Assembly: GCF_054482525.1 (NCBI RefSeq)
Contig: NZ_CM137006.1
DNA: 64,000 nt
Reading direction: 5' to 3' (one strand)
This document shows positions 311 through 20,200 of this stretch, piece by piece. Under the pieces are notes generated by a model. It was not told where the DNA came from, ran no database searches, and worked only from the letters and a program-made list of their open reading frames with translations. The translations under genes were made by a program, and so were the position numbers. The stretch's first letter is position 1. Every line of letters starts with the position of its first letter.

Positions 311-1168
311 GTGAAAGCTGACAACCCTTTTGATCTTTTACTTCCTGCAGCAATGGCCAAAGTGGCCGAAGAGGCAGGTGTCTATAAAGCAACGAAACAT
401 CCGCTTAAGACTTTCTATCTGGCGATTACCGCCGGTGTTTTCATCTCAATCGCATTCGTCTTCTATATCACAGCAACCACTGGCACAGGAACAATGCCCT
501 TCGGCATGGCAAAACTGGTTGGCGGCATTTGCTTCTCTCTGGGGCTGATTCTTTGTGTTGTCTGCGGAGCCGATCTCTTTACTTCCACAGTGTTGATTGT
601 TGTTGCTAAGGCGAGTGGGCGCATCACCTGGGGTCAGTTGGCGAAAAACTGGCTAAATGTCTATTTTGGCAACCTGGTCGGCGCACTGCTGTTTGTACTT
701 TTAATGTGGCTTTCCGGCGAGTATATGACCGCGAATGGTCAATGGGGACTAAACGTCCTACAAACCGCCGACCACAAAGTGCACCATACTTTTATTGAGG
801 CCGTCTGTCTTGGTATCCTGGCAAACCTGATGGTATGTCTGGCAGTATGGATGAGTTATTCTGGCCGCAGCCTGATGGATAAAGCGTTCATTATGGTGCT
901 GCCGGTCGCGATGTTTGTTGCCAGCGGTTTTGAGCACAGTATCGCAAACATGTTTATGATCCCGATGGGTATTGTAATCCGCGACTTCGCATCTCCGGAA
1001 TTCTGGACCGCTGTCGGTTCTGCACCGGAAAATTTTTCTCACCTGACCGTGATGAACTTCATCACTGATAACCTGATTCCGGTTACGATCGGTAATATTA
1101 TCGGCGGTGGTTTGTTGGTTGGGTTGACATACTGGGTCATTTATCTGCGTGAAAACGATCACCATTAA
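311..1168 (+). CDS. focA: Formate channel FocA (285 aa, GTG start inside the longer ORF 38-1168)
   Basis: Translation from VKADNPFDLLLPAAMAKVAEEAGVYKATKH... to ...YLRENDHH matches FocA as I remember it; immediately upstream of pflB. Confidence 0.93.
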   Translation: MKADNPFDLLLPAAMAKVAEEAGVYKATKHPLKTFYLAITAGVFISIAFVFYITATTGTGTMPFGMAKLVGGICFSLGLILCVVCGADLFTSTVLIVVAKASGRITWGQLAKNWLNVYFGNLVGALLFVLLMWLSGEYMTANGQWGLNVLQTADHKVHHTFIEAVCLGILANLMVCLAVWMSYSGRSLMDKAFIMVLPVAMFVASGFEHSIANMFMIPMGIVIRDFASPEFWTAVGSAPENFSHLTVMNFITDNLIPVTIGNIIGGGLLVGLTYWVIYLRENDHH

Positions 1169-1222
1169 TGGTTGTCGAAGTACGCAGTAAATAAAAAATC
1201 CACTTAAGAAGGTAGGTGTTAC

Positions 1223-3505
1223 ATGTCCGAGCTTAATGAAAAGTTAGCCACAGCCTGGGAAGGTTTTACCAAAGGTGACTGGCAGAATGAAGTAAACGTC
1301 CGTGACTTCATTCAGAAAAACTACACTCCGTACGAGGGTGACGAGTCCTTCCTGGCTGGCGCTACTGAAGCGACCACCACCCTGTGGGACAAAGTAATGG
1401 AAGGCGTTAAACTGGAAAACCGCACTCACGCGCCAGTTGACTTTGACACCGCTGTTGCTTCCACCATCACCTCTCACGACGCTGGCTACATCAACAAAGC
1501 GTTGGAAAAAGTTGTTGGTCTGCAGACTGAAGCTCCGCTGAAACGTGCTCTTATCCCGTTCGGTGGTATCAAAATGATCGAAGGTTCCTGCAAAGCGTAC
1601 AACCGCGAACTGGACCCGATGATCAAAAAAATCTTCACTGAATACCGTAAAACTCACAACCAGGGCGTGTTCGACGTTTACACTCCGGACATCCTGCGTT
1701 GCCGTAAATCCGGTGTTCTGACCGGTCTGCCAGATGCTTATGGCCGTGGTCGTATCATCGGTGACTACCGTCGCGTTGCGCTGTACGGTATCGACTACCT
1801 GATGAAAGACAAACTTGCACAGTTCACCTCTCTGCAGGCTGATCTGGAAAACGGCGTAAACCTGGAACAGACTATCCGTCTGCGCGAAGAAATCGCTGAA
1901 CAGCACCGCGCTCTGGGTCAGATGAAAGAAATGGCTGCGAAATACGGCTACGACATCTCTGGTCCGGCTACCAACGCTCAGGAAGCTATCCAGTGGACTT
2001 ACTTTGGCTACCTGGCTGCTGTTAAGTCTCAGAACGGTGCTGCAATGTCCTTCGGTCGTACCTCCACCTTCCTGGATGTGTACATCGAACGTGACCTGAA
2101 AGCTGGCAAGATCACCGAACAAGAAGCGCAGGAAATGGTTGACCACCTGGTCATGAAACTGCGTATGGTTCGCTTCCTGCGTACTCCGGAATACGATGAA
2201 CTGTTCTCTGGCGACCCGATCTGGGCAACCGAATCTATCGGTGGTATGGGCCTCGACGGTCGTACCCTGGTTACCAAAAACAGCTTCCGTTTCCTGAACA
2301 CCCTGTACACCATGGGTCCGTCTCCGGAACCGAACATGACCATTCTGTGGTCTGAAAAACTGCCGCTGAACTTCAAGAAATTCGCCGCTAAAGTGTCCAT
2401 CGACACCTCTTCTCTGCAGTATGAGAACGATGACCTGATGCGTCCGGACTTCAACAACGATGACTACGCTATCGCTTGCTGCGTAAGCCCGATGATCGTT
2501 GGTAAACAAATGCAGTTCTTCGGTGCGCGTGCAAACCTGGCGAAAACCATGCTGTACGCAATCAACGGCGGCGTTGACGAAAAACTGAAAATGCAGGTTG
2601 GTCCGAAGTCTGAGCCGATCAAAGGCGATCTCCTGAACTACGATGAAGTGATGGAGCGCATGGATCACTTCATGGACTGGCTGGCTAAACAGTACATCAC
2701 TGCACTGAACATCATCCACTACATGCACGACAAGTACAGCTACGAAGCCTCTCTGATGGCGCTGCACGACCGTGACGTTATCCGCACCATGGCGTGTGGT
2801 ATCGCTGGTCTGTCCGTTGCTGCTGACTCCCTGTCTGCAATCAAATATGCGAAAGTTAAACCGATTCGTGACGAAGACGGTCTGGCTATCGACTTCGAAA
2901 TCGAAGGCGAATACCCGCAGTTTGGTAACAACGATCCGCGTGTAGATGACCTGGCTGTTGACCTGGTAGAACGTTTCATGAAGAAAATTCAGAAACTGCA
3001 CACCTACCGTGACGCTATCCCGACTCAGTCTGTTCTGACCATCACTTCTAACGTTGTGTATGGTAAGAAAACTGGTAACACCCCAGACGGTCGTCGTGCT
3101 GGCGCGCCGTTCGGACCGGGTGCTAACCCGATGCACGGTCGTGACCAGAAAGGTGCAGTAGCCTCTCTGACTTCCGTTGCTAAACTGCCGTTTGCTTACG
3201 CTAAAGATGGTATCTCCTACACCTTCTCTATCGTTCCGAACGCACTGGGTAAAGACGACGAAGTTCGTAAGACCAACCTGGCTGGTCTGATGGATGGTTA
3301 CTTCCACCACGAAGCATCCATCGAAGGTGGTCAGCACCTGAACGTTAACGTGATGAACCGTGAAATGCTGCTCGACGCGATGGAAAACCCAGAAAAATAT
3401 CCGCAGCTGACCATCCGTGTATCTGGCTACGCAGTACGTTTCAACTCGCTGACTAAAGAACAGCAGCAGGACGTTATTACTCGTACCTTCACTCAATCTA
3501 TGTAA
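1223..3505 (+). CDS. pflB: Pyruvate formate-lyase (760 aa)
   Basis: [31 protein letters not shown]... and C-terminal glycyl-radical region [29 protein letters not shown]; SD-like AAGAAGGTAGG upstream. Confidence 0.97.
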
Positions 3506-3547
3506 TTAGATTTGACTGAAATCGTACAGTAAAAAGCGTACAATAAA

Positions 3548-3573
3548 GGCTCCACGAAAGTGGGGCCTTTTTT
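3548..3573 (+). terminator. Rho-independent terminator downstream of pflB (GGCTCCACgaaaGTGGGGCC + T-run)
   Basis: GC-rich hairpin followed by TTTTTT immediately after the pflB stop. Confidence 0.55.
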
Positions 3574-3696
3574 AGCACGAGAGCCTTTTTTGTCAGCTAT
3601 CTATACTTTAAGGTGACTGCCAAAACAGACTCGACGTAGCCTTCGAGCTGCGCACCAACACGGCCTCAGATGGGCCACATCTGGAGAAACACCGCA

Positions 3697-4437
3697 ATGT
3701 CAGTTATTGGTCGCATTCACTCCTTTGAATCCTGTGGAACCGTAGACGGCCCGGGTATTCGCTTTATCACCTTTTTCCAGGGCTGCCTGATGCGCTGCCT
3801 GTATTGTCATAACCGCGACACCTGGGACACGCATGGCGGTAAAGAAGTTACCGTTGAAGATTTGATGAAAGAGGTGGTGACCTATCGCCACTTTATGAAC
3901 GCTTCCGGCGGCGGCGTTACCGCATCCGGCGGTGAAGCAATCCTGCAAGCTGAGTTTGTTCGTGACTGGTTCCGCGCCTGCAAAAAAGAAGGCATTCATA
4001 CCTGTCTGGATACCAACGGTTTTGTTCGTCGTTACGATCCGGTGATTGATGAACTGCTGGAAGTAACCGACCTGGTAATGCTCGATCTCAAACAGATGAA
4101 CGACGAGATCCACCAAAATCTGGTTGGAGTTTCCAACCACCGCACGCTGGAGTTTGCTAAATATCTGGCGAATAAAAATGTGAAGGTGTGGATCCGCTAC
4201 GTTGTTGTCCCAGGCTGGTCTGACGATGACGATTCAGCGCATCGCCTCGGTGAATTTACCCGTGATATGGGCAACGTTGAGAAAATCGAGCTTCTCCCCT
4301 ACCACGAACTGGGCAAACACAAATGGGTGGCGATGGGTGAAGAATACAAACTCGATGGTGTTAAACCACCGAAGAAAGAGACCATGGAACGCGTGAAAGG
4401 CATTCTTGAGCAGTACGGTCATAAGGTAATGTTCTAA
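3697..4437 (+). CDS. pflA: Pyruvate formate-lyase activating enzyme (radical SAM, 246 aa)
   Basis: [44 protein letters not shown] with CxxxCxxC radical-SAM motif; start taken at the internal ATG of ORF 3670-4437. Confidence 0.95.
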
Positions 4438-4449
4438 TTTCCCCGTAAA

Positions 4450-4480
4450 GCGGCAACTTTTTTGAGTTGCCGCCTTTTTA
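4450..4480. terminator. Hairpin terminator between convergent pflA and ycaM (GCGGCAAC...GTTGCCGC with flanking T/A runs)
   Basis: Inverted repeat flanked by T-runs, positioned between two convergent stop codons. Confidence 0.5.
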
Positions 4481-4646
4481 TTCCGCGCTGCATAAATAAT
4501 TCAGAGCTCTATTTCTAACGCCCTTACAGCACAGCTTCCAAATGTATTACCCAAACCGCCAGTATATGTCCTGCGGCTTGCGCGCATTTCTCGATTATGT
4601 AAAAACGGGTCAGATCTGCCAGAGTCAGCGTCACCGACCACAATAA

Positions 4647-6077
4647 TTATTTGCTATTCGCTTTACGCGCCAGCAGCGGGAATATCAGCCCTAATCCTAC
4701 CAGCACAAACGGCGTTGCAACATTCAGCGCCAACTGGAATGTCCACTCTGCGGTGAAGGCTTCCATTTTTGGGAAAATACCAGTCAGGCAGGCAAAAGCG
4801 GTAAAGGCAAAACACCAAATTCCGACGGTCATTGCCAGCGGCTTATTACGAATAAAGACATATTCCGGCTTATATTTCTGCGCCAGGCGAACAACTGCAA
4901 TAAATGCAACAAATACCCATAAATAACGCAGCGGCATCACTACCGAGTTAAGATTCAACAGCCATTTATAGAGATTGTTCATATCACCAATGCCGAGAGT
5001 CGGTAGCATTATCAGGATCGCCACCAGCGCCAGGGTCAGAAAATAGCCATTAACGGGCGTACCAGAAGCGTTGGTACGACATAAACTGGCTGGAATATAT
5101 TTGCTGTCAGCATCGCCTAATAACACTTTAAGCGGCGCATCAATCGAGAATACCAGCGCAGCTACTTGTCCCAGGGTATTCGCAATGGCATAAATCACCA
5201 TTAAAGTATTACCCATGTTGTAATACTCGCCCAGCTTCTGAAAGGCGTAATACTGACCGTTAGTCATTAAGTCATCCGGGATATTACGCGAGTCAAACAT
5301 CATCCCCATCGCCAGTGAGCCCAGAATGGCACAAACCGCAACCATCACCGCCAGGCATAACATCCCTTTTGGAAATTCTTTTCCTGGGTTGCGCGTTTGA
5401 TTAACATAAGGAGAAATCTTCTCTGCTCCGCCAACCGCGAAAACCAGCATTGAAATAGTGGTAATGTAGGTAAAGTCGATATGAGGAATGAACGTTTCCC
5501 AGGTAATGTTTGTGGTCGCAATATGCACTTCAGTAATCGCAGGCGCGGTTACCGCCATCGCCACATACAGGAGCGACATAACAAACATCGCAATCCCTGC
5601 CACAGAACCGACGATTTTCAGCGATTTCATACCGCGTGAAGCAACCCACATAAAGAAGACAAACAGCACCAGCGTTAACCCCTGTAACGCTACGACTGAA
5701 TATTCTTTGATTAGCGAACCGTCGCCTTTCATCGCCCAACCGAGCGCAATCAGTATTGCCTGGGGTTTTTGTGCCAGATAGGGAATATGCACTACCCAGT
5801 AGGTCCACGCGGCGAGGTAAGCCAGTCCGGGTCCCATCGTGTGTTTAATCCAGGTACTGACCCCGCCCTTCCCATCTTTGAAGGTCGAGCCTAACTGACC
5901 AACAATTAGCGCATAAGGTGTGAAATAGAGCGCAAAGATAAACACCCATGAAAAAACAACCACCAGCCCCTGGTTGGCGTAGTTATTAACAACGTTGCCA
6001 AAACCCCAGACAGTGATAAAAGACATCAGCGCAATGTTGTACCATCGCAGCTGTTTTTCCTGAACATTCCCAGCCAT
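4647..6077 (-). CDS. ycaM: APC-superfamily transporter YcaM (476 aa)
   Basis: MAGNVQEKQLRWYNIALMSFITVWGFGNVVNNYANQG..., polytopic membrane protein; start at the internal ATG of ORF 4647-6269. Confidence 0.85.
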   Translation of the reverse strand: MAGNVQEKQLRWYNIALMSFITVWGFGNVVNNYANQGLVVVFSWVFIFALYFTPYALIVGQLGSTFKDGKGGVSTWIKHTMGPGLAYLAAWTYWVVHIPYLAQKPQAILIALGWAMKGDGSLIKEYSVVALQGLTLVLFVFFMWVASRGMKSLKIVGSVAGIAMFVMSLLYVAMAVTAPAITEVHIATTNITWETFIPHIDFTYITTISMLVFAVGGAEKISPYVNQTRNPGKEFPKGMLCLAVMVAVCAILGSLAMGMMFDSRNIPDDLMTNGQYYAFQKLGEYYNMGNTLMVIYAIANTLGQVAALVFSIDAPLKVLLGDADSKYIPASLCRTNASGTPVNGYFLTLALVAILIMLPTLGIGDMNNLYKWLLNLNSVVMPLRYLWVFVAFIAVVRLAQKYKPEYVFIRNKPLAMTVGIWCFAFTAFACLTGIFPKMEAFTAEWTFQLALNVATPFVLVGLGLIFPLLARKANSK

Positions 6078-16093: not shown

Positions 16094-19000
16094 TTAGTCA
16101 AACGGCGGTGGGGCCAGCACTTCACGATTACCGTTGTGCCCCTGTTCGCTGACAATCCCCTGCGCTTCCATCTGTTCGATAATACGCGCTGCACGGTTAT
16201 AACCAATGCGGAACTGACGCTGTACGCCAGAAATTGATGCTTTGCGTTTTTCAGTGACAAACTGCACCGCCTGATCGAACAACGGATCCAGCTCTTCAGC
16301 GCCATCGAAACCGCCCGCGCCACCTTCGCTTTCGCTGTCGGAGGTGATGCCATCAACATACTGTGGGCGACCACGCGCTTTCCAGTCCTGCACCACGGCA
16401 TGAACTTCCTGATCGCGAACAAAAGCACCATGAACACGTACCGGCAACGTGGAGTTCGGCCCAGAGTAAAGCATATCCCCCATACCCAGTAGTGATTCCG
16501 CGCCAGCCTGATCAAGAATGGTACGTGAGTCAATCTTACTGGATACGGTAAAGGCGATACGGGTCGGAATATTCGCTTTAATCAGACCAGTAATAACATC
16601 AACCGATGGACGCTGCGTTGCCAGTACGAGGTGGATACCCGCGGCACGGGCTTTTTGCGCCAGACGTGCTATAAGCTCTTCCACTTTTTTACCTACCGTC
16701 ATCATCAGGTCGGCAAATTCATCCACCAGCACCACAATGTATGGTTCTTTTTTCAGCACCGGATGCTGAGCATCCATACTGTCACCCGGCTTCCAGTACG
16801 GGTCTGGAATCGGACGCATCATGCGATCGGCTTCAGCAATTTTTTCGTTATAACCCGCCAGATTACGCACACCCAGCGCAGACATCAGTTTATAACGACG
16901 CTCCATCTCGTTAACACACCAGCGCAGCGCGTTGGCGGCATCTTTCATATCAGTAACGACTTCCGTTAACAGATGCGGAATGCCTTCATAAACCGAAAGC
17001 TCCAGCATTTTCGGGTCGATCATGATGAAACGCACATCTTCTGGCTGCGCTTTATAAAGCATGCTCAGGATCATCGCGTTCACACCGACAGACTTACCGG
17101 AACCGGTAGTCCCCGCAACCAACAAGTGCGGCATTTTCGCCAGATCGGCAACCACCGGCTCACCGGCGATATCTTTACCCAGCACCACGGTTAATGGCGA
17201 CGGATTATCACGGAATTTGGCGTTATCCAATACTTCGCGCAGATAAACGGTTTGTCGTTTTTTATTCGGTAACTCCAGACCTACATAGGGTTTGCCAGGA
17301 ATAACTTCAACGACACGCACCGCAACCGTCGAAAGTGAACGGGCAAGGTCCCGTGACAAGTTAGAAATGCGCGCCGCTTTTACGCCCGGTGCCAGGTTAA
17401 GTTCAAAGCGAGTGATAACCGGCCCCGGAGAGTAATTGACGACATCGGCTTTAATACGGAAATCAGCCAGACGCGCTTCCACCAGACGCGCCATTTGTTC
17501 AAGCGCAAAGGTATCTACCGGCTCCACTTCGCTCGGCGGCGGTGTCAGCAAATCCAGAGAAGGCAGCGGCGTCGTCGGTTTATGCAACGGACGGCTGTCA
17601 CCATTACGCATCAACAGCGGATGAAGCAGGGTATCCTGCGGCTGTGGCGCAACTGGCTGTTGTGGCTGCTGATACTGCGGCTGCGGTGCAACCGGCTGTT
17701 GTGGCTGCTGATATTGCGGCTGTGGTGCAACCGGCTGTTGCGGCTGCTGATATTGTGGCTGCGGCGCAACCTGCTGTTGTGGCTGCTGATACTGCTGCTG
17801 CGGCGCAACCGGCTGTTGCGGCTGCTGATATTGCTGCTGTGGCGCAACCGGCTGTTGTGGCTGCTGATACTGCTGCTGCGGTGCAACCGGTTGTTGCGGC
17901 TGCTGTACAGGTTCAACAATTGGCGTAAACAACGGTTCGTGTGGACCATCATCCAGCAACGCTTTCATTGGCGAAAATTCAAAATCATCCAGCGAGAACG
18001 GATTCGCCCCAGCCGGTTGTTCGCCGGAATAACGTTGTTGTTGAGTTTGCGCAAACTGACGAGCCAGTTCAGCCTCTGCCGCAGCATCTGCATCTTCTGC
18101 GTTTACGGGCACATCATGTTGATACTGTTCGCCATAGCGTTGCTGCTGTGTCTGGGCGAACTGACGTGCCAGTTCATCCTGCTGCATCGCATCGATTTCA
18201 TCATCGTTGTACTGATCGCCGGAATCGTACTGATTGCGCTGGGCTTCACGGGCTTTTTCTTCTGCCGCACGCTGTGAGGGCAGCTTAATACCGTAAGACG
18301 CCAGTTCACGACGAGTTGGCACGCGGATACGTTTCGGTCGTGGCAACTGCGGGCCAATCCCCTCTTTGACCTGCGGACGCGGTCCAGCGCTATTTGCCAG
18401 ACTGAAGACTGGCGCGGCAACGGTTGCGGCAGCCCCCGTCGCCAGTGTCGCTTTTTTCACGCCAGATGCCAGAGGGGAAACAGCGGCAGCGGCTTCTACT
18501 GGAGGTACTGCTGCAACAGAAGGTGCTTTCAGCGAAGATTTGATCGGTTCTGGTTCTTTAACCGGTTCTGGAATCGGTTGATACCAGGCCGCAAGTTGTT
18601 CACGTTCACGGGCTCGCTTCTCTTCCACTTCTTCAAAGTAGTAAAGCGGCGGACGCGCGGGTTTTGTCTCTTCTACAACGGGTTCAGGCTCCACAACAGG
18701 CTGCTGTTCAACAGGTTGCGGCTGTTGGTACAACGGCTCCTGAGCGACTGGCTGCTGATAAGTTTGCTCAGTCTGGTATGTAGACTGTGGAGCAAAAGTG
18801 GATTGCTGCTCTTCGGCTTGCCAGGCGTTACCTGCCACCGATTGTTCTGGCGCAGGGGCGTAATACGGCTGTTGCGCAGACTGTTCCGGCGCAGGGGCGT
18901 AATACGACTGTTGCGCAGACTGTTCCGGCGCAGTTGCGTAATACGGTTGCTGAACAGGTTGTTCCGCCGCAGGCGCATAATACGGCTGCTGTGGCTGTAC

Positions 19001-20200
19001 AGGTTGTTGCAGCGGCTCATTATATTGCACTGCAGGCTGCGCATATTGTGGCTGCTGTGGGTAACCTTCCGGTGCAGGAGCAATCACCGGCTCTCCCGTT
19101 TGTGGCCCCGGTACAGGCTGCCAGGCTACTGTAGGTTGTGCAGGTGGAACATCAACAGAGGCAACAGGTGGCGTCTGAGTCACAGGTTCAACCGGTGCAG
19201 CCCAGCTTTGCGTCGCCGTGGTAGCAGCAGCTGCTACAGCAACAGGTTCGGTAATTGGCGCACCGTTTAATAATGGATCGTACTCGTCATATTCTGGCTG
19301 CGTTGCACGATTGCCCGAAAAGAGGACGTCGTCAGGGTCGGCAGCCACACCGCGTGCAGTGTAGGTAATCTCTTCGTCATCATCCATCCGCTTACCGGAG
19401 AACAACGCAGCGTCTGTTTGCCGCCCCATCGGATTAATGAATTTTTCCGCCAACCGTTTACGACGCGCTAGCGCGCCGCGAAGAATACGAGCACGGCGTG
19501 ATTCATGCTGTTTGCCGTGATTTTCATCTTCATACTCTTCGTCATCTTCATACTCATCTTCATCGACCCAGGTATCATCGCGACGGGTACGATTACTGGC
19601 GAAGGTGAGAATGTTTAAAATCCAGCCGCCGAGTTTTTCAGCAATGGTCACCCATGACCAACCGGTGAACAGCGTCAGACCCGCAGCCCAAACGCAGAGC
19701 AGCGCAATAGTTCCCCCGCTACTGTGTAGCAGTGGTTGTAGCGTAGTGCTTAGTAAGCTGCCAATGACGCCACCGGAGGCAAAATACCAGATATCGTCAG
19801 CGTTGATTGCCGCCAGACCACAGGAGGTAAGGATGAGCGCCAAAACGCCAATGATGCGTAGCGAAACGGCAAAATAATCAATGTATTCGTCGCTGGACTG
19901 ATGACGCCAGGCAAACCAACAACCGCCGACAATAATGACGGGAATGGTGTAAGCCATCACGCCAAAAATAAAGAACAGCGTATCTGCCAGCCATGCACCG
20001 GGCATCCCACCTAAATTATGGATAGGTTCATGCCAGGCCGTTTGCGACCAGCTGGGGTCCGAAGGGTTAAAGCTTAGTAAGGCAGCCATCAACCAGACGG
20101 CAAACAGGACAATAAGGATCAGCAACGCCTCCAGAAGGCGGCGGCCGCTACTTAACTTTGTCAATGTGACTTCTTTGTCTTCAGTGTATTCCTGGCTCAA
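16094..20200 (-). CDS. ftsK: DNA translocase FtsK (1368 aa) with a long proline/glutamine-rich linker
   Basis: [31 protein letters not shown]... N-terminal membrane domain; C-terminal motor with [12 protein letters not shown]; linker repeats [13 protein letters not shown]. Confidence 0.96.
17641..17913. repeat. In-frame tandem repeats (about 39 bp unit, about 7 copies) inside the ftsK linker
   Basis: Repeating ctgttgtggctgctgatactgcggctgcggtgcaaccgg units, encoding [13 protein letters not shown] on the minus strand. Confidence 0.8.
18840..18990. repeat. Second in-frame tandem repeat block in the ftsK linker ([13 protein letters not shown]-type units)
   Basis: Near-identical units ggcgcaggggcgtaatacggctgttgcgcagactgttcc repeated. 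Confidence 0.7.

What the first reader, a model, noticed from the sequence alone, without database searches (positions are those of the whole stretch)
17600..19000. Expanded in-frame tandem repeats in the FtsK linker (protein 1368 aa)
Two blocks of about 39-bp tandem repeats encode [13 protein letters not shown]-type and [13 protein letters not shown]-type units. The protein is longer than the ~1329 aa I recall for K-12, consistent with repeat-number variation by replication slippage; the locus could serve as a strain-typing marker.
Basis: partly seen in the sequence, partly recalled or inferred. Interest (0 to 1): 0.25.

Follow-up and report, generated by a model that had tools for sequence, protein, structure and literature searches.

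The report
Known variable repeats in ftsK linker
The cell-division gene ftsK of this E. coli strain carries two stretches of 39-base in-frame repeats whose copy number differs between strains; they are real, but they are common and have been used as strain-typing markers since 2007-2008, so the finding is ordinary.

Summary
The window is E. coli PCN033. Its ftsK gene (16094-20200, minus strand, 1368 aa) holds two in-frame 39-bp tandem arrays in the region coding for the disordered Pro/Gln-rich linker. Block A (17636-17905) has 6 full [13 protein letters not shown] units plus a 10-codon partial unit. Block B (18836-18991) has 4 [13 protein letters not shown] units. K-12 FtsK (1329 aa) lacks exactly 1 unit in A and 2 in B.

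The allele is neither unusual nor an artefact. An identical 4107-bp gene occurs in three other complete genomes. In an evenly spaced sample of 60 of 5,426 complete E. coli genomes, 7 copies in A is the commonest state (about half), and 2, 3 and 4 copies in B each make up about a third. K-12 sits at the short end.

Both arrays are established VNTR typing loci. Block A is CVN001 (Lindstedt scheme) and ms07 (Gorgé scheme). Block B is ms06. Published primers hit the window. The Salmonella ortholog of block A is STTR7/SENTR2.

Units differ mostly at synonymous sites (pN/pS about 0.1). Block A units share a Val codon within each species. This points to an old, peptide-constrained array with slow turnover by slippage or unequal exchange. 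Novelty: already known. Interest: low.

The parts
16094..20200 (-). ftsK coding sequence, 1368 aa, TTG start
   Evidence: ORF. It is 100% identical to the annotated ftsK of E. coli PCN033, WP_000077033.1. NCBIfam NF007615 scores 3088 bits against a cutoff of 1566. Pfam finds the 4TM, alpha, FtsK_SpoIIIE and gamma domains.
17567..19627 (-). Region coding for the FtsK linker (aa 192-878). It has no Pfam domain and is 14% Pro, 16% Gln.
   Evidence: Gap between PF13491 (aa 20-191) and PF17854 (aa 879-979). Composition. The literature describes the linker as unstructured and Pro/Gln-rich (PMC5357621, PMC3870252).
17636..17905 (-). Block A: 39-bp x 6.9 tandem array encoding PQQPVAPQ[Q/P]QYQQ (aa 768-855; 6 full units plus a 10-codon partial unit). 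This is VNTR locus CVN001 / ms07.
   Evidence: TRF. Unit decomposition. K-12 has one unit fewer. Sampled genomes carry 2-9 units.
18836..18991 (-). Block B: 39-bp x 4 tandem array encoding [13 protein letters not shown] (aa 404-455). This is VNTR locus ms06.
   Evidence: TRF 18843-18988. Unit decomposition. K-12 has two units fewer. Sampled genomes carry 2, 3 or 4 units.
17535..18018 (-). In-silico CVN001 amplicon, 484 bp, allele 6 by the formula (PS-250)/39. K-12 gives 445 bp, allele 5.
   Evidence: Primers from PMC8143711 Table 1. Both match exactly.
17540..18165 (-). In-silico ms07 amplicon, 626 bp. K-12 gives 587 bp.
   Evidence: Primers from PMC8215070 Table 1. Both match exactly.
18723..19101 (-). 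In-silico ms06 amplicon, 379 bp, the top of the published 301-379 bp range. K-12 gives 301 bp.
   Evidence: The reverse primer matches exactly. The forward primer matches at 19082-19101 with one mismatch. Published size range and alleles 2, 3, 4 are.

Best explanation
These are two in-frame 39-bp minisatellites (VNTRs) within the part of ftsK that codes for the long, disordered Pro/Gln-rich linker. That linker joins the membrane anchor of FtsK to its DNA-pumping motor. Copy number changes by whole 13-codon units, and occasionally by partial in-frame pieces. The likely mechanism is misalignment between neighbouring units, either replication slippage or unequal exchange/gene conversion. Alleles are also moved between lineages by homologous recombination. 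Because the linker is a flexible tether, a range of lengths is tolerated, so many alleles coexist in the species. PCN033 carries a common allele (4 units in block B, 6 full plus 1 partial in block A; 1368 aa). K-12 carries a short one (2 and 5+1; 1329 aa).

Shown here: the arrays, the in-frame whole-unit differences, the population polymorphism, and the identity with published typing loci. Inferred: the misalignment mechanism and the tolerance argument.
For: The arrays are real and far above chance.

The difference from K-12 is exactly 2+1 units.

In 19 alleles, FtsK ranges from 1290 to 1381 aa and every ORF is intact. In 17 of the 19, all length change is confined to the two blocks, and the flanking segments are constant at 1209/936/1542 nt.

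Evenly spaced samples of 60 from 5,426 genomes give the following. Block A: 7 copies in about 31 (three of these carry an extra 24-bp deletion), 6 in 19, 8 in 4, 5 in 2, 4 in 1, 2 in 1. Block B: 4 copies in 20, 3 in 20, 2 in 19.

Copy number is uniform within clones in these samples. K-12 derivatives all have 3990 nt, the ST131 genomes 4107 nt, and the O157:H7 genomes 2+7.

An identical 4107-nt allele occurs in three other complete genomes.

Concerted evolution is visible in block A. All six Salmonella units use GTA for Val. Sixteen of 17 E. coli units use GTT. Units are closer within a species (2.7 and about 4 mismatches) than between species (5.3-6.1).

Published primers for CVN001, ms07 and ms06 flank the arrays.

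The linker is described as unstructured and variable in length between species.
Against: No two units in the window are identical at the DNA level. Full units differ by 2-7 mismatches in block A and 5-9 in block B. So no recent duplication is visible in this strain, and slippage must be infrequent.

Unit orders differ between alleles by more than single steps. Simple one-step slippage therefore does not describe the history on its own.

The sequence data cannot distinguish replication slippage from RecA-dependent unequal exchange.

Strong peptide conservation of the units (pN/pS 0.08-0.17) suggests the sequence is not a free spacer.
Confidence: 0.93

Rival explanations
1. The extra units are an assembly artefact (collapse or expansion of a repeat) in the PCN033 genome.
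For: The arrays do trouble short-read assemblies. Many database FtsK entries are 'partial' proteins that end or start inside the arrays. Examples are P0005 (ends in block A; 2236 member sequences), P0006 (starts in block B) and Salmonella P0109 (ends in block A; 6351 members).
Against: The identical 4107-nt sequence is found at 100% identity in one ungapped piece in three other complete genomes: SCU-102, 19KM1776 and OZ547136. A colinear, single-piece 4107-nt ftsK is also found in many unrelated complete genomes, including the NCTC and ST131 genomes in the sample. Both copy numbers fall within the published allele ranges.
Confidence: 0.02
2. Copy number is functionally tuned. The 13-aa units are sequence-specific modules, for example a polyproline-II spacer or a binding motif for a divisome partner. 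Different unit numbers would then adjust the reach or force transmission of the FtsK motor, so alleles are maintained by selection rather than by neutral drift.
For: Paralogous units show pS 0.38-0.52 but pN 0.03-0.09. The block A unit peptide is identical in E. coli, Salmonella and Citrobacter koseri, while the query region (FtsK aa 380-870) is only about 61% identical to Salmonella. The observed range is bounded at 2-9 units. The linker is reported to be needed for normal FtsK activity and to contact FtsQ, L, I and Z (citing Bigot 2004 and Dubarry 2010). [quoted passage not shown]
Against: Wide polymorphism exists within one species, with no known phenotype. A clinical blood isolate carries only 2 units (L004). 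Block B is absent in Salmonella and is a single unit in E. fergusonii. Constraint could act merely on composition and disorder rather than on a motif.
Confidence: 0.2
3. The allele differences arose mainly by import of whole ftsK segments from other lineages through homologous recombination, not by in-situ gain or loss in the PCN033 lineage.
For: SNP patterns are mosaic. Strain 18KM2445 differs from the window by 1 and 5 SNPs in the 5' and middle segments but by 34 in the 3' segment. VCSW5 differs by 1, 7 and 0.
Against: Recombination only redistributes alleles. It cannot create the 39-bp-step series or the species-specific homogenisation of units. This is a complement to the best explanation rather than an alternative.
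Confidence: 0.3

Closest known systems
CVN001 (generic E. coli MLVA of Lindstedt et al. 2007; GECM-7/GECM-10) and ms07 (Shigella/E. coli MLVA of Gorgé et al. 2008)
   Same: It is the same locus as block A. Published primers match the window exactly and flank the array. The repeat length is 39 bp. The window gives allele 6 in CVN001 numbering (484 bp) and a 626-bp ms07 amplicon. GECM-10 type names begin with the allele number at this locus.
   Different: Nothing structural. The papers read here do not name ftsK as the gene. That link was made here by primer mapping.
ms06 (Gorgé et al. 2008 MLVA panel)
   Same: It is the same locus as block B. The repeat is 39 bp, and the published alleles 2, 3, 4 with amplicons of 301-379 bp match the 2/3/4 series seen in complete genomes. 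The window gives 379 bp.
   Different: PCN033 has one mismatch in the forward primer site.
Salmonella enterica STTR7 / SENTR2 VNTR in ftsK
   Same: It is the orthologous 39-bp PQ array at the same position in the linker. It encodes the same [13 protein letters not shown] unit, is used in MLVA, and shows natural in-frame deletions.
   Different: Salmonella units are more homogeneous (2.7 against about 4 mismatches per unit) and use GTA rather than GTT for Val. Salmonella has no block B array.
Other in-frame VNTRs in disordered parts of envelope or division proteins, e.g. the 45-bp tolA repeat (SENTR1/SE-10)
   Same: It is a coding minisatellite with a unit length divisible by three, and it is used in the same MLVA scheme as the ftsK locus.
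   Different: It is a different gene and a different repeat peptide. It is an analogy only and was not examined here.

Membership tests
DNA translocase FtsK (NCBIfam NF007615 equivalog) | Full-length match above the curated cutoff | tested here: met
   3088 bits against a cutoff of 1566, covering aa 1-1368.
DNA translocase FtsK (NCBIfam NF007615 equivalog) | Domain order: N-terminal 4TM anchor, then linker, then alpha/beta motor with P-loop, then gamma winged helix | tested here: met
   PF13491 at aa 20-191, PF17854 at 879-979, PF01580 at 987-1200, PF09397 at 1303-1363. The GTTGSGKS Walker A motif is visible in the translation.
DNA translocase FtsK (NCBIfam NF007615 equivalog) | Conserved chromosomal context lrp-ftsK-lolA-rarA | tested here: met
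   Annotation of PCN033 and of 18 other genomes.
VNTR / coding minisatellite (CVN001/ms07 and ms06) | Head-to-tail tandem copies of a unit of about 10-100 bp | tested here: met
   39-bp period with 6.9 and 3.7 copies.
VNTR / coding minisatellite (CVN001/ms07 and ms06) | Copy number differs among strains in multiples of the unit | tested here: met
   Spans differ by multiples of 39 bp in samples of 60 genomes. Unit decompositions of 19 alleles are. A minority of alleles carry 24-bp or other in-frame partial deletions.
VNTR / coding minisatellite (CVN001/ms07 and ms06) | Published locus primers flank the array | tested here: met
   CVN001 and ms07 primers match exactly. ms06 matches with one mismatch.
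Phase-variable contingency locus (simple-sequence repeat switching a gene on and off) | Repeat changes shift the reading frame or promoter spacing to switch expression | tested here: not met
   The unit is 39 bp (13 codons). All 19 alleles examined keep one intact ORF.
Replication slippage as the mutational mechanism | RecA-independent gain or loss of units during replication | not testable with these tools
   Only indirect support: whole-unit indels and species-specific homogenisation of units.

The most novel reading that the evidence does not exclude
The 13-residue [13 protein letters not shown] unit is a selected functional module rather than filler. Among the units, synonymous sites differ at about 40% of positions while the peptide is nearly invariant (pN/pS about 0.1). 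The same unit peptide persists at the same linker position in Escherichia, Salmonella and Citrobacter. Natural alleles with 2 to 9 units would then form an allelic series that tunes how far, or how stiffly, the FtsK motor is tethered to the closing septum.
Probability: 0.2. Interest if true: 0.3.

Novelty: already known. Interest (0 to 1): 0.07.

Why it matters
It matters little as a discovery, because the polymorphism and its use in typing are long established.

Three practical points follow from this check. First, K-12's 1329-aa FtsK is a short allele, not the species norm, so residue numbering in the linker does not transfer between strains. Second, copy number is stable within clones and differs between lineages in the samples seen here. 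It therefore behaves as a low-resolution lineage marker, not an outbreak clock. Third, the arrays are frequent contig break points in short-read assemblies, so copy number should be read only from long-read or complete assemblies.

The strong peptide constraint on the units is a modest lead for people who study the FtsK linker.

Tried and rejected
Assembly artefact: rejected, because the identical allele occurs in three other complete genomes.

Phase-variation or contingency locus: rejected, because the unit is 13 codons and all alleles are intact.

Second genomic locus: the 'median 2 places per genome' might suggest one. PCN033 itself has only one place, and the listed best places all lie under ftsK. 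The extra places are most likely off-register alignments within the same arrays, but they were not inspected individually.

Literature dead ends. A combined search for CVN001 plus ftsK found no paper holding both terms. The '39 bp' in PMC4853403 refers to the JUMPstart element, not ftsK. PMC6113214 says nothing about the linker. The original Gorgé 2008 paper (PMC2268344) is not held, so the primers were taken from later papers that cite it.

Tool issues. The repeat finder refuses minus-strand regions. The protein search with the linker listed only fragments among its best 120 hits, so full-length outgroup proteins were not obtained. My regular expression extracted no repeat units from the Citrobacter koseri locus L021, so Citrobacter is compared at the peptide level only.

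I did not run structure prediction, because the region is low-complexity and the literature describes it as unstructured.

Full report
**What is there.** The window matches the chromosome of Escherichia coli PCN033 at 100% identity. A single ORF on the minus strand, 16094-20200 (TTG start, 1368 aa), is annotated there as ftsK. It lies between lrp and lolA-rarA. It matches the NCBIfam FtsK equivalog NF007615 over its whole length, at 3088 bits against a cutoff of 1566. Pfam finds the expected domains: 4TM at aa 20-191, alpha at 879-979, FtsK_SpoIIIE at 987-1200 and gamma at 1303-1363. The 687 residues between the 4TM and alpha domains form the linker. It has no Pfam domain and is 14% Pro and 16% Gln.

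**The observation.** Tandem Repeats Finder reports two 39-bp arrays within the stated range. One is 17636-17905, with 6.9 copies, 89% matches, no indels and score 407. The other is 18843-18988, with 3.7 copies, 85% matches and score 201. Identity at lag 39 is 0.90 and 0.85. Shuffles give 0.29 and 0.26, and no shuffle out of 2000 exceeds 0.41.
- Read in the gene's frame, block A (aa 768-855) is six full PQQPVAPQ[Q/P]QYQQ units plus a final 10-codon unit.
- Block B (aa 404-455) is four [13 protein letters not shown] units.
- K-12 MG1655 ftsK is 3990 nt, or 1329 aa.
- The alignment with K-12 is 99% identical and has only two gaps: 26 aa in block B and 13 aa in block A, which is three whole units.

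**How unusual is it?** Not at all. I took evenly spaced samples of 60 records from the ranking of all 5,426 complete E. coli genomes and read copy number from the span of the match.

| Array | Copy-number counts in the sample |
|---|---|
| Block A | 7 copies about 31 (three with an extra 24-bp deletion); 6 copies 19; 8 copies 4; 5 copies 2; 4 copies 1; 2 copies 1; 2 unresolved |
| Block B | 4 copies 20; 3 copies 20; 2 copies 19; 1 irregular |

At least 17 of 60 sampled genomes have a 4107-nt ftsK like the window, including the ST131 genomes in the sample. The K-12 derivatives in the sample have 3990 nt. I compared nineteen alleles in detail. FtsK ranges from 1290 to 1381 aa, every ORF is intact, and block A has 2-9 units and block B 2-4. 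In 17 of the 19, the segments outside the blocks have constant lengths of 1209, 936 and 1542 nt. K-12 is thus a short allele, and 'expanded' is true only relative to it.

**Is it an artefact?** No. The identical 4107-nt sequence occurs as one ungapped 100% match in three other complete genomes, from a human, a dog and a human. The concern was still reasonable. The protein search returned mostly 'partial' FtsK fragments that end or begin inside the arrays. Examples are P0005 (2236 member sequences), P0006 and Salmonella P0109 (6351 members). The arrays are evidently common contig break points in draft assemblies.

**Already known.** Primers published for three MLVA loci map onto the window.

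| Locus | Primer source | Amplicon in window | Size and allele | K-12 |
|---|---|---|---|---|
| CVN001 (block A) | PMC8143711 Table 1, from Lindstedt 2007 | 17535-18018 | 484 bp, allele 6 by (PS-250)/39 | 445 bp, allele 5 |
| ms07 (block A) | PMC8215070 Table 1, from Gorgé 2008 | 17540-18165 | 626 bp | 587 bp |
| ms06 (block B) | PMC8215070 Table 1, from Gorgé 2008 | 18723-19101 | 379 bp, one primer mismatch | 301 bp |

- The source papers give 39-bp repeats for all three loci.
- They report alleles 2, 3, 4 for ms06 and 1-12 for ms07.
- The same two loci were used on Shigella flexneri as SF33 and SF12.
- GECM-10 type names begin with the CVN001 allele.
- In Salmonella the orthologous array is the VNTR STTR7/SENTR2, '39 bp, ftsK'.

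**Mechanism.** The 39-bp-step series and the in-frame whole-unit differences fit misalignment between units. However, no two units in the window are identical. Full units differ by 2-7 mismatches in block A and 5-9 in block B. Unit orders differ between alleles by more than one step, even against the closest allele, VCSW5, which has 8 SNPs outside the blocks and 8 versus 7 units. Turnover is therefore slow.

Among paralogous units, pS is 0.38 (A) and 0.52 (B), while pN is 0.03 and 0.09. That gives pN/pS of 0.08 and 0.17. The units are old and the peptide is constrained.

Concerted evolution is nevertheless visible. All six Salmonella units use GTA for Val, and 16 of 17 E. coli units use GTT. 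Units are closer within a species than between species. Mosaic SNP patterns show that homologous recombination also moves alleles between lineages. Strain 18KM2445, for example, has 1 and 5 SNPs in the 5' and middle segments but 34 in the 3' segment. The sequence data cannot separate replication slippage from unequal exchange.

**Evolutionary depth.** Block A is present at the same position, between ...HEPLFTP... and D[T/S]L[L/I][12 protein letters not shown], in several other taxa, with essentially the same unit peptide. These are Salmonella, Citrobacter koseri, an unnamed relative (P0084) and Escherichia sp. isolates E2586 and E1S7. Block B is one unit in E. fergusonii, two units in Escherichia sp. 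E2586 and E1S7, and absent as a repeat in Salmonella. Block B therefore arose within Escherichia. Two units is probably the older state in E. coli, and three or four units are later gains.

**Function.** The literature describes the linker as unstructured, Pro/Gln-rich, variable in length between species and required for normal FtsK activity. It also reports contacts with FtsQ, L, I and Z. The simplest reading is that a flexible tether tolerates a range of lengths. The peptide constraint leaves room for a more specific role of the units. I rate that at about 0.2.

**Verdict.** The feature is already known and is ordinary for the species.

Noticed in passing
window 18134-18175 and 18029-18070 (minus strand; FtsK aa 676-689 and 711-724): A two-copy dispersed repeat, [14 protein letters not shown], lies 35 residues apart in the linker between the two arrays. 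Both copies are also present, with small changes, in the Salmonella and Citrobacter fragments.
   Followed up: partly
window 19523-19564 (minus strand; FtsK aa ~213-226): The acidic stretch [14 protein letters not shown] is coded by a short repeat of period 6/9/18 bp. No length variation was seen in this segment among 17 alleles.
   Followed up: partly
window 20198-20200: ftsK starts with TTG in the window and in all 14 other alleles printed.
   Followed up: yes
window 17495-18277 (+), 17542-17928 (+), 17611-17952 (-), 18578-19270 (+), 18673-19083 (-), 18787-19134 (+): Long ORFs appear in other frames and on the opposite strand across both arrays. They are most simply by-products of stop-free repeats rather than genes.
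   Followed up: no
L011 (UTI89), L007 (OkiPb01708), L010 (ZJ3920): block A: Some alleles carry a 24-bp in-frame partial-unit deletion that leaves a 5-residue stump (PQYQQ). ftsK length is therefore not always a multiple of 39 bp away from other alleles. This gives non-integer CVN001 alleles, e.g. 5.38 in UTI89.
   Followed up: partly
L015 (strain Z1323HEC0300) ftsK 905-4885: This human isolate lacks a 42-aa segment just upstream of block A ([42 protein letters not shown]). That segment is otherwise conserved from E. coli to Salmonella and Citrobacter. The gene remains intact at 1326 aa.
   Followed up: partly
L010 (strain ZJ3920) ftsK 1902-5888: An irregular deletion at the start of block B fuses NEPLQQP directly to [10 protein letters not shown], apparently an out-of-register event between QQP motifs. 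The protein is 1328 aa.
   Followed up: partly
P0005, P0006, P0109 and many others: Thousands of database 'partial FtsK' proteins from E. coli and Salmonella end or start inside the arrays. Draft assemblies evidently break there.
   Followed up: partly
L017 (18KM2445) and L016 (VCSW5) versus window ftsK: SNP density is mosaic along ftsK: 1 and 5 SNPs in the 5' and middle segments against 34 in the 3' segment. This suggests recombination breakpoints near block A.
   Followed up: partly
NZ_CP148399.1 (hit H177, 73,668-bp record): ftsK is found on a 73.7-kb record, and 13-17 matching places are counted as 'on plasmids'. These may be chromosome fragments labelled as plasmids. They were not examined.
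   Followed up: no
window 19082-19101: The ms06 forward primer site has one synonymous mismatch in PCN033 (GTT to GTG), four bases from the primer's 3' end.
   Followed up: yes
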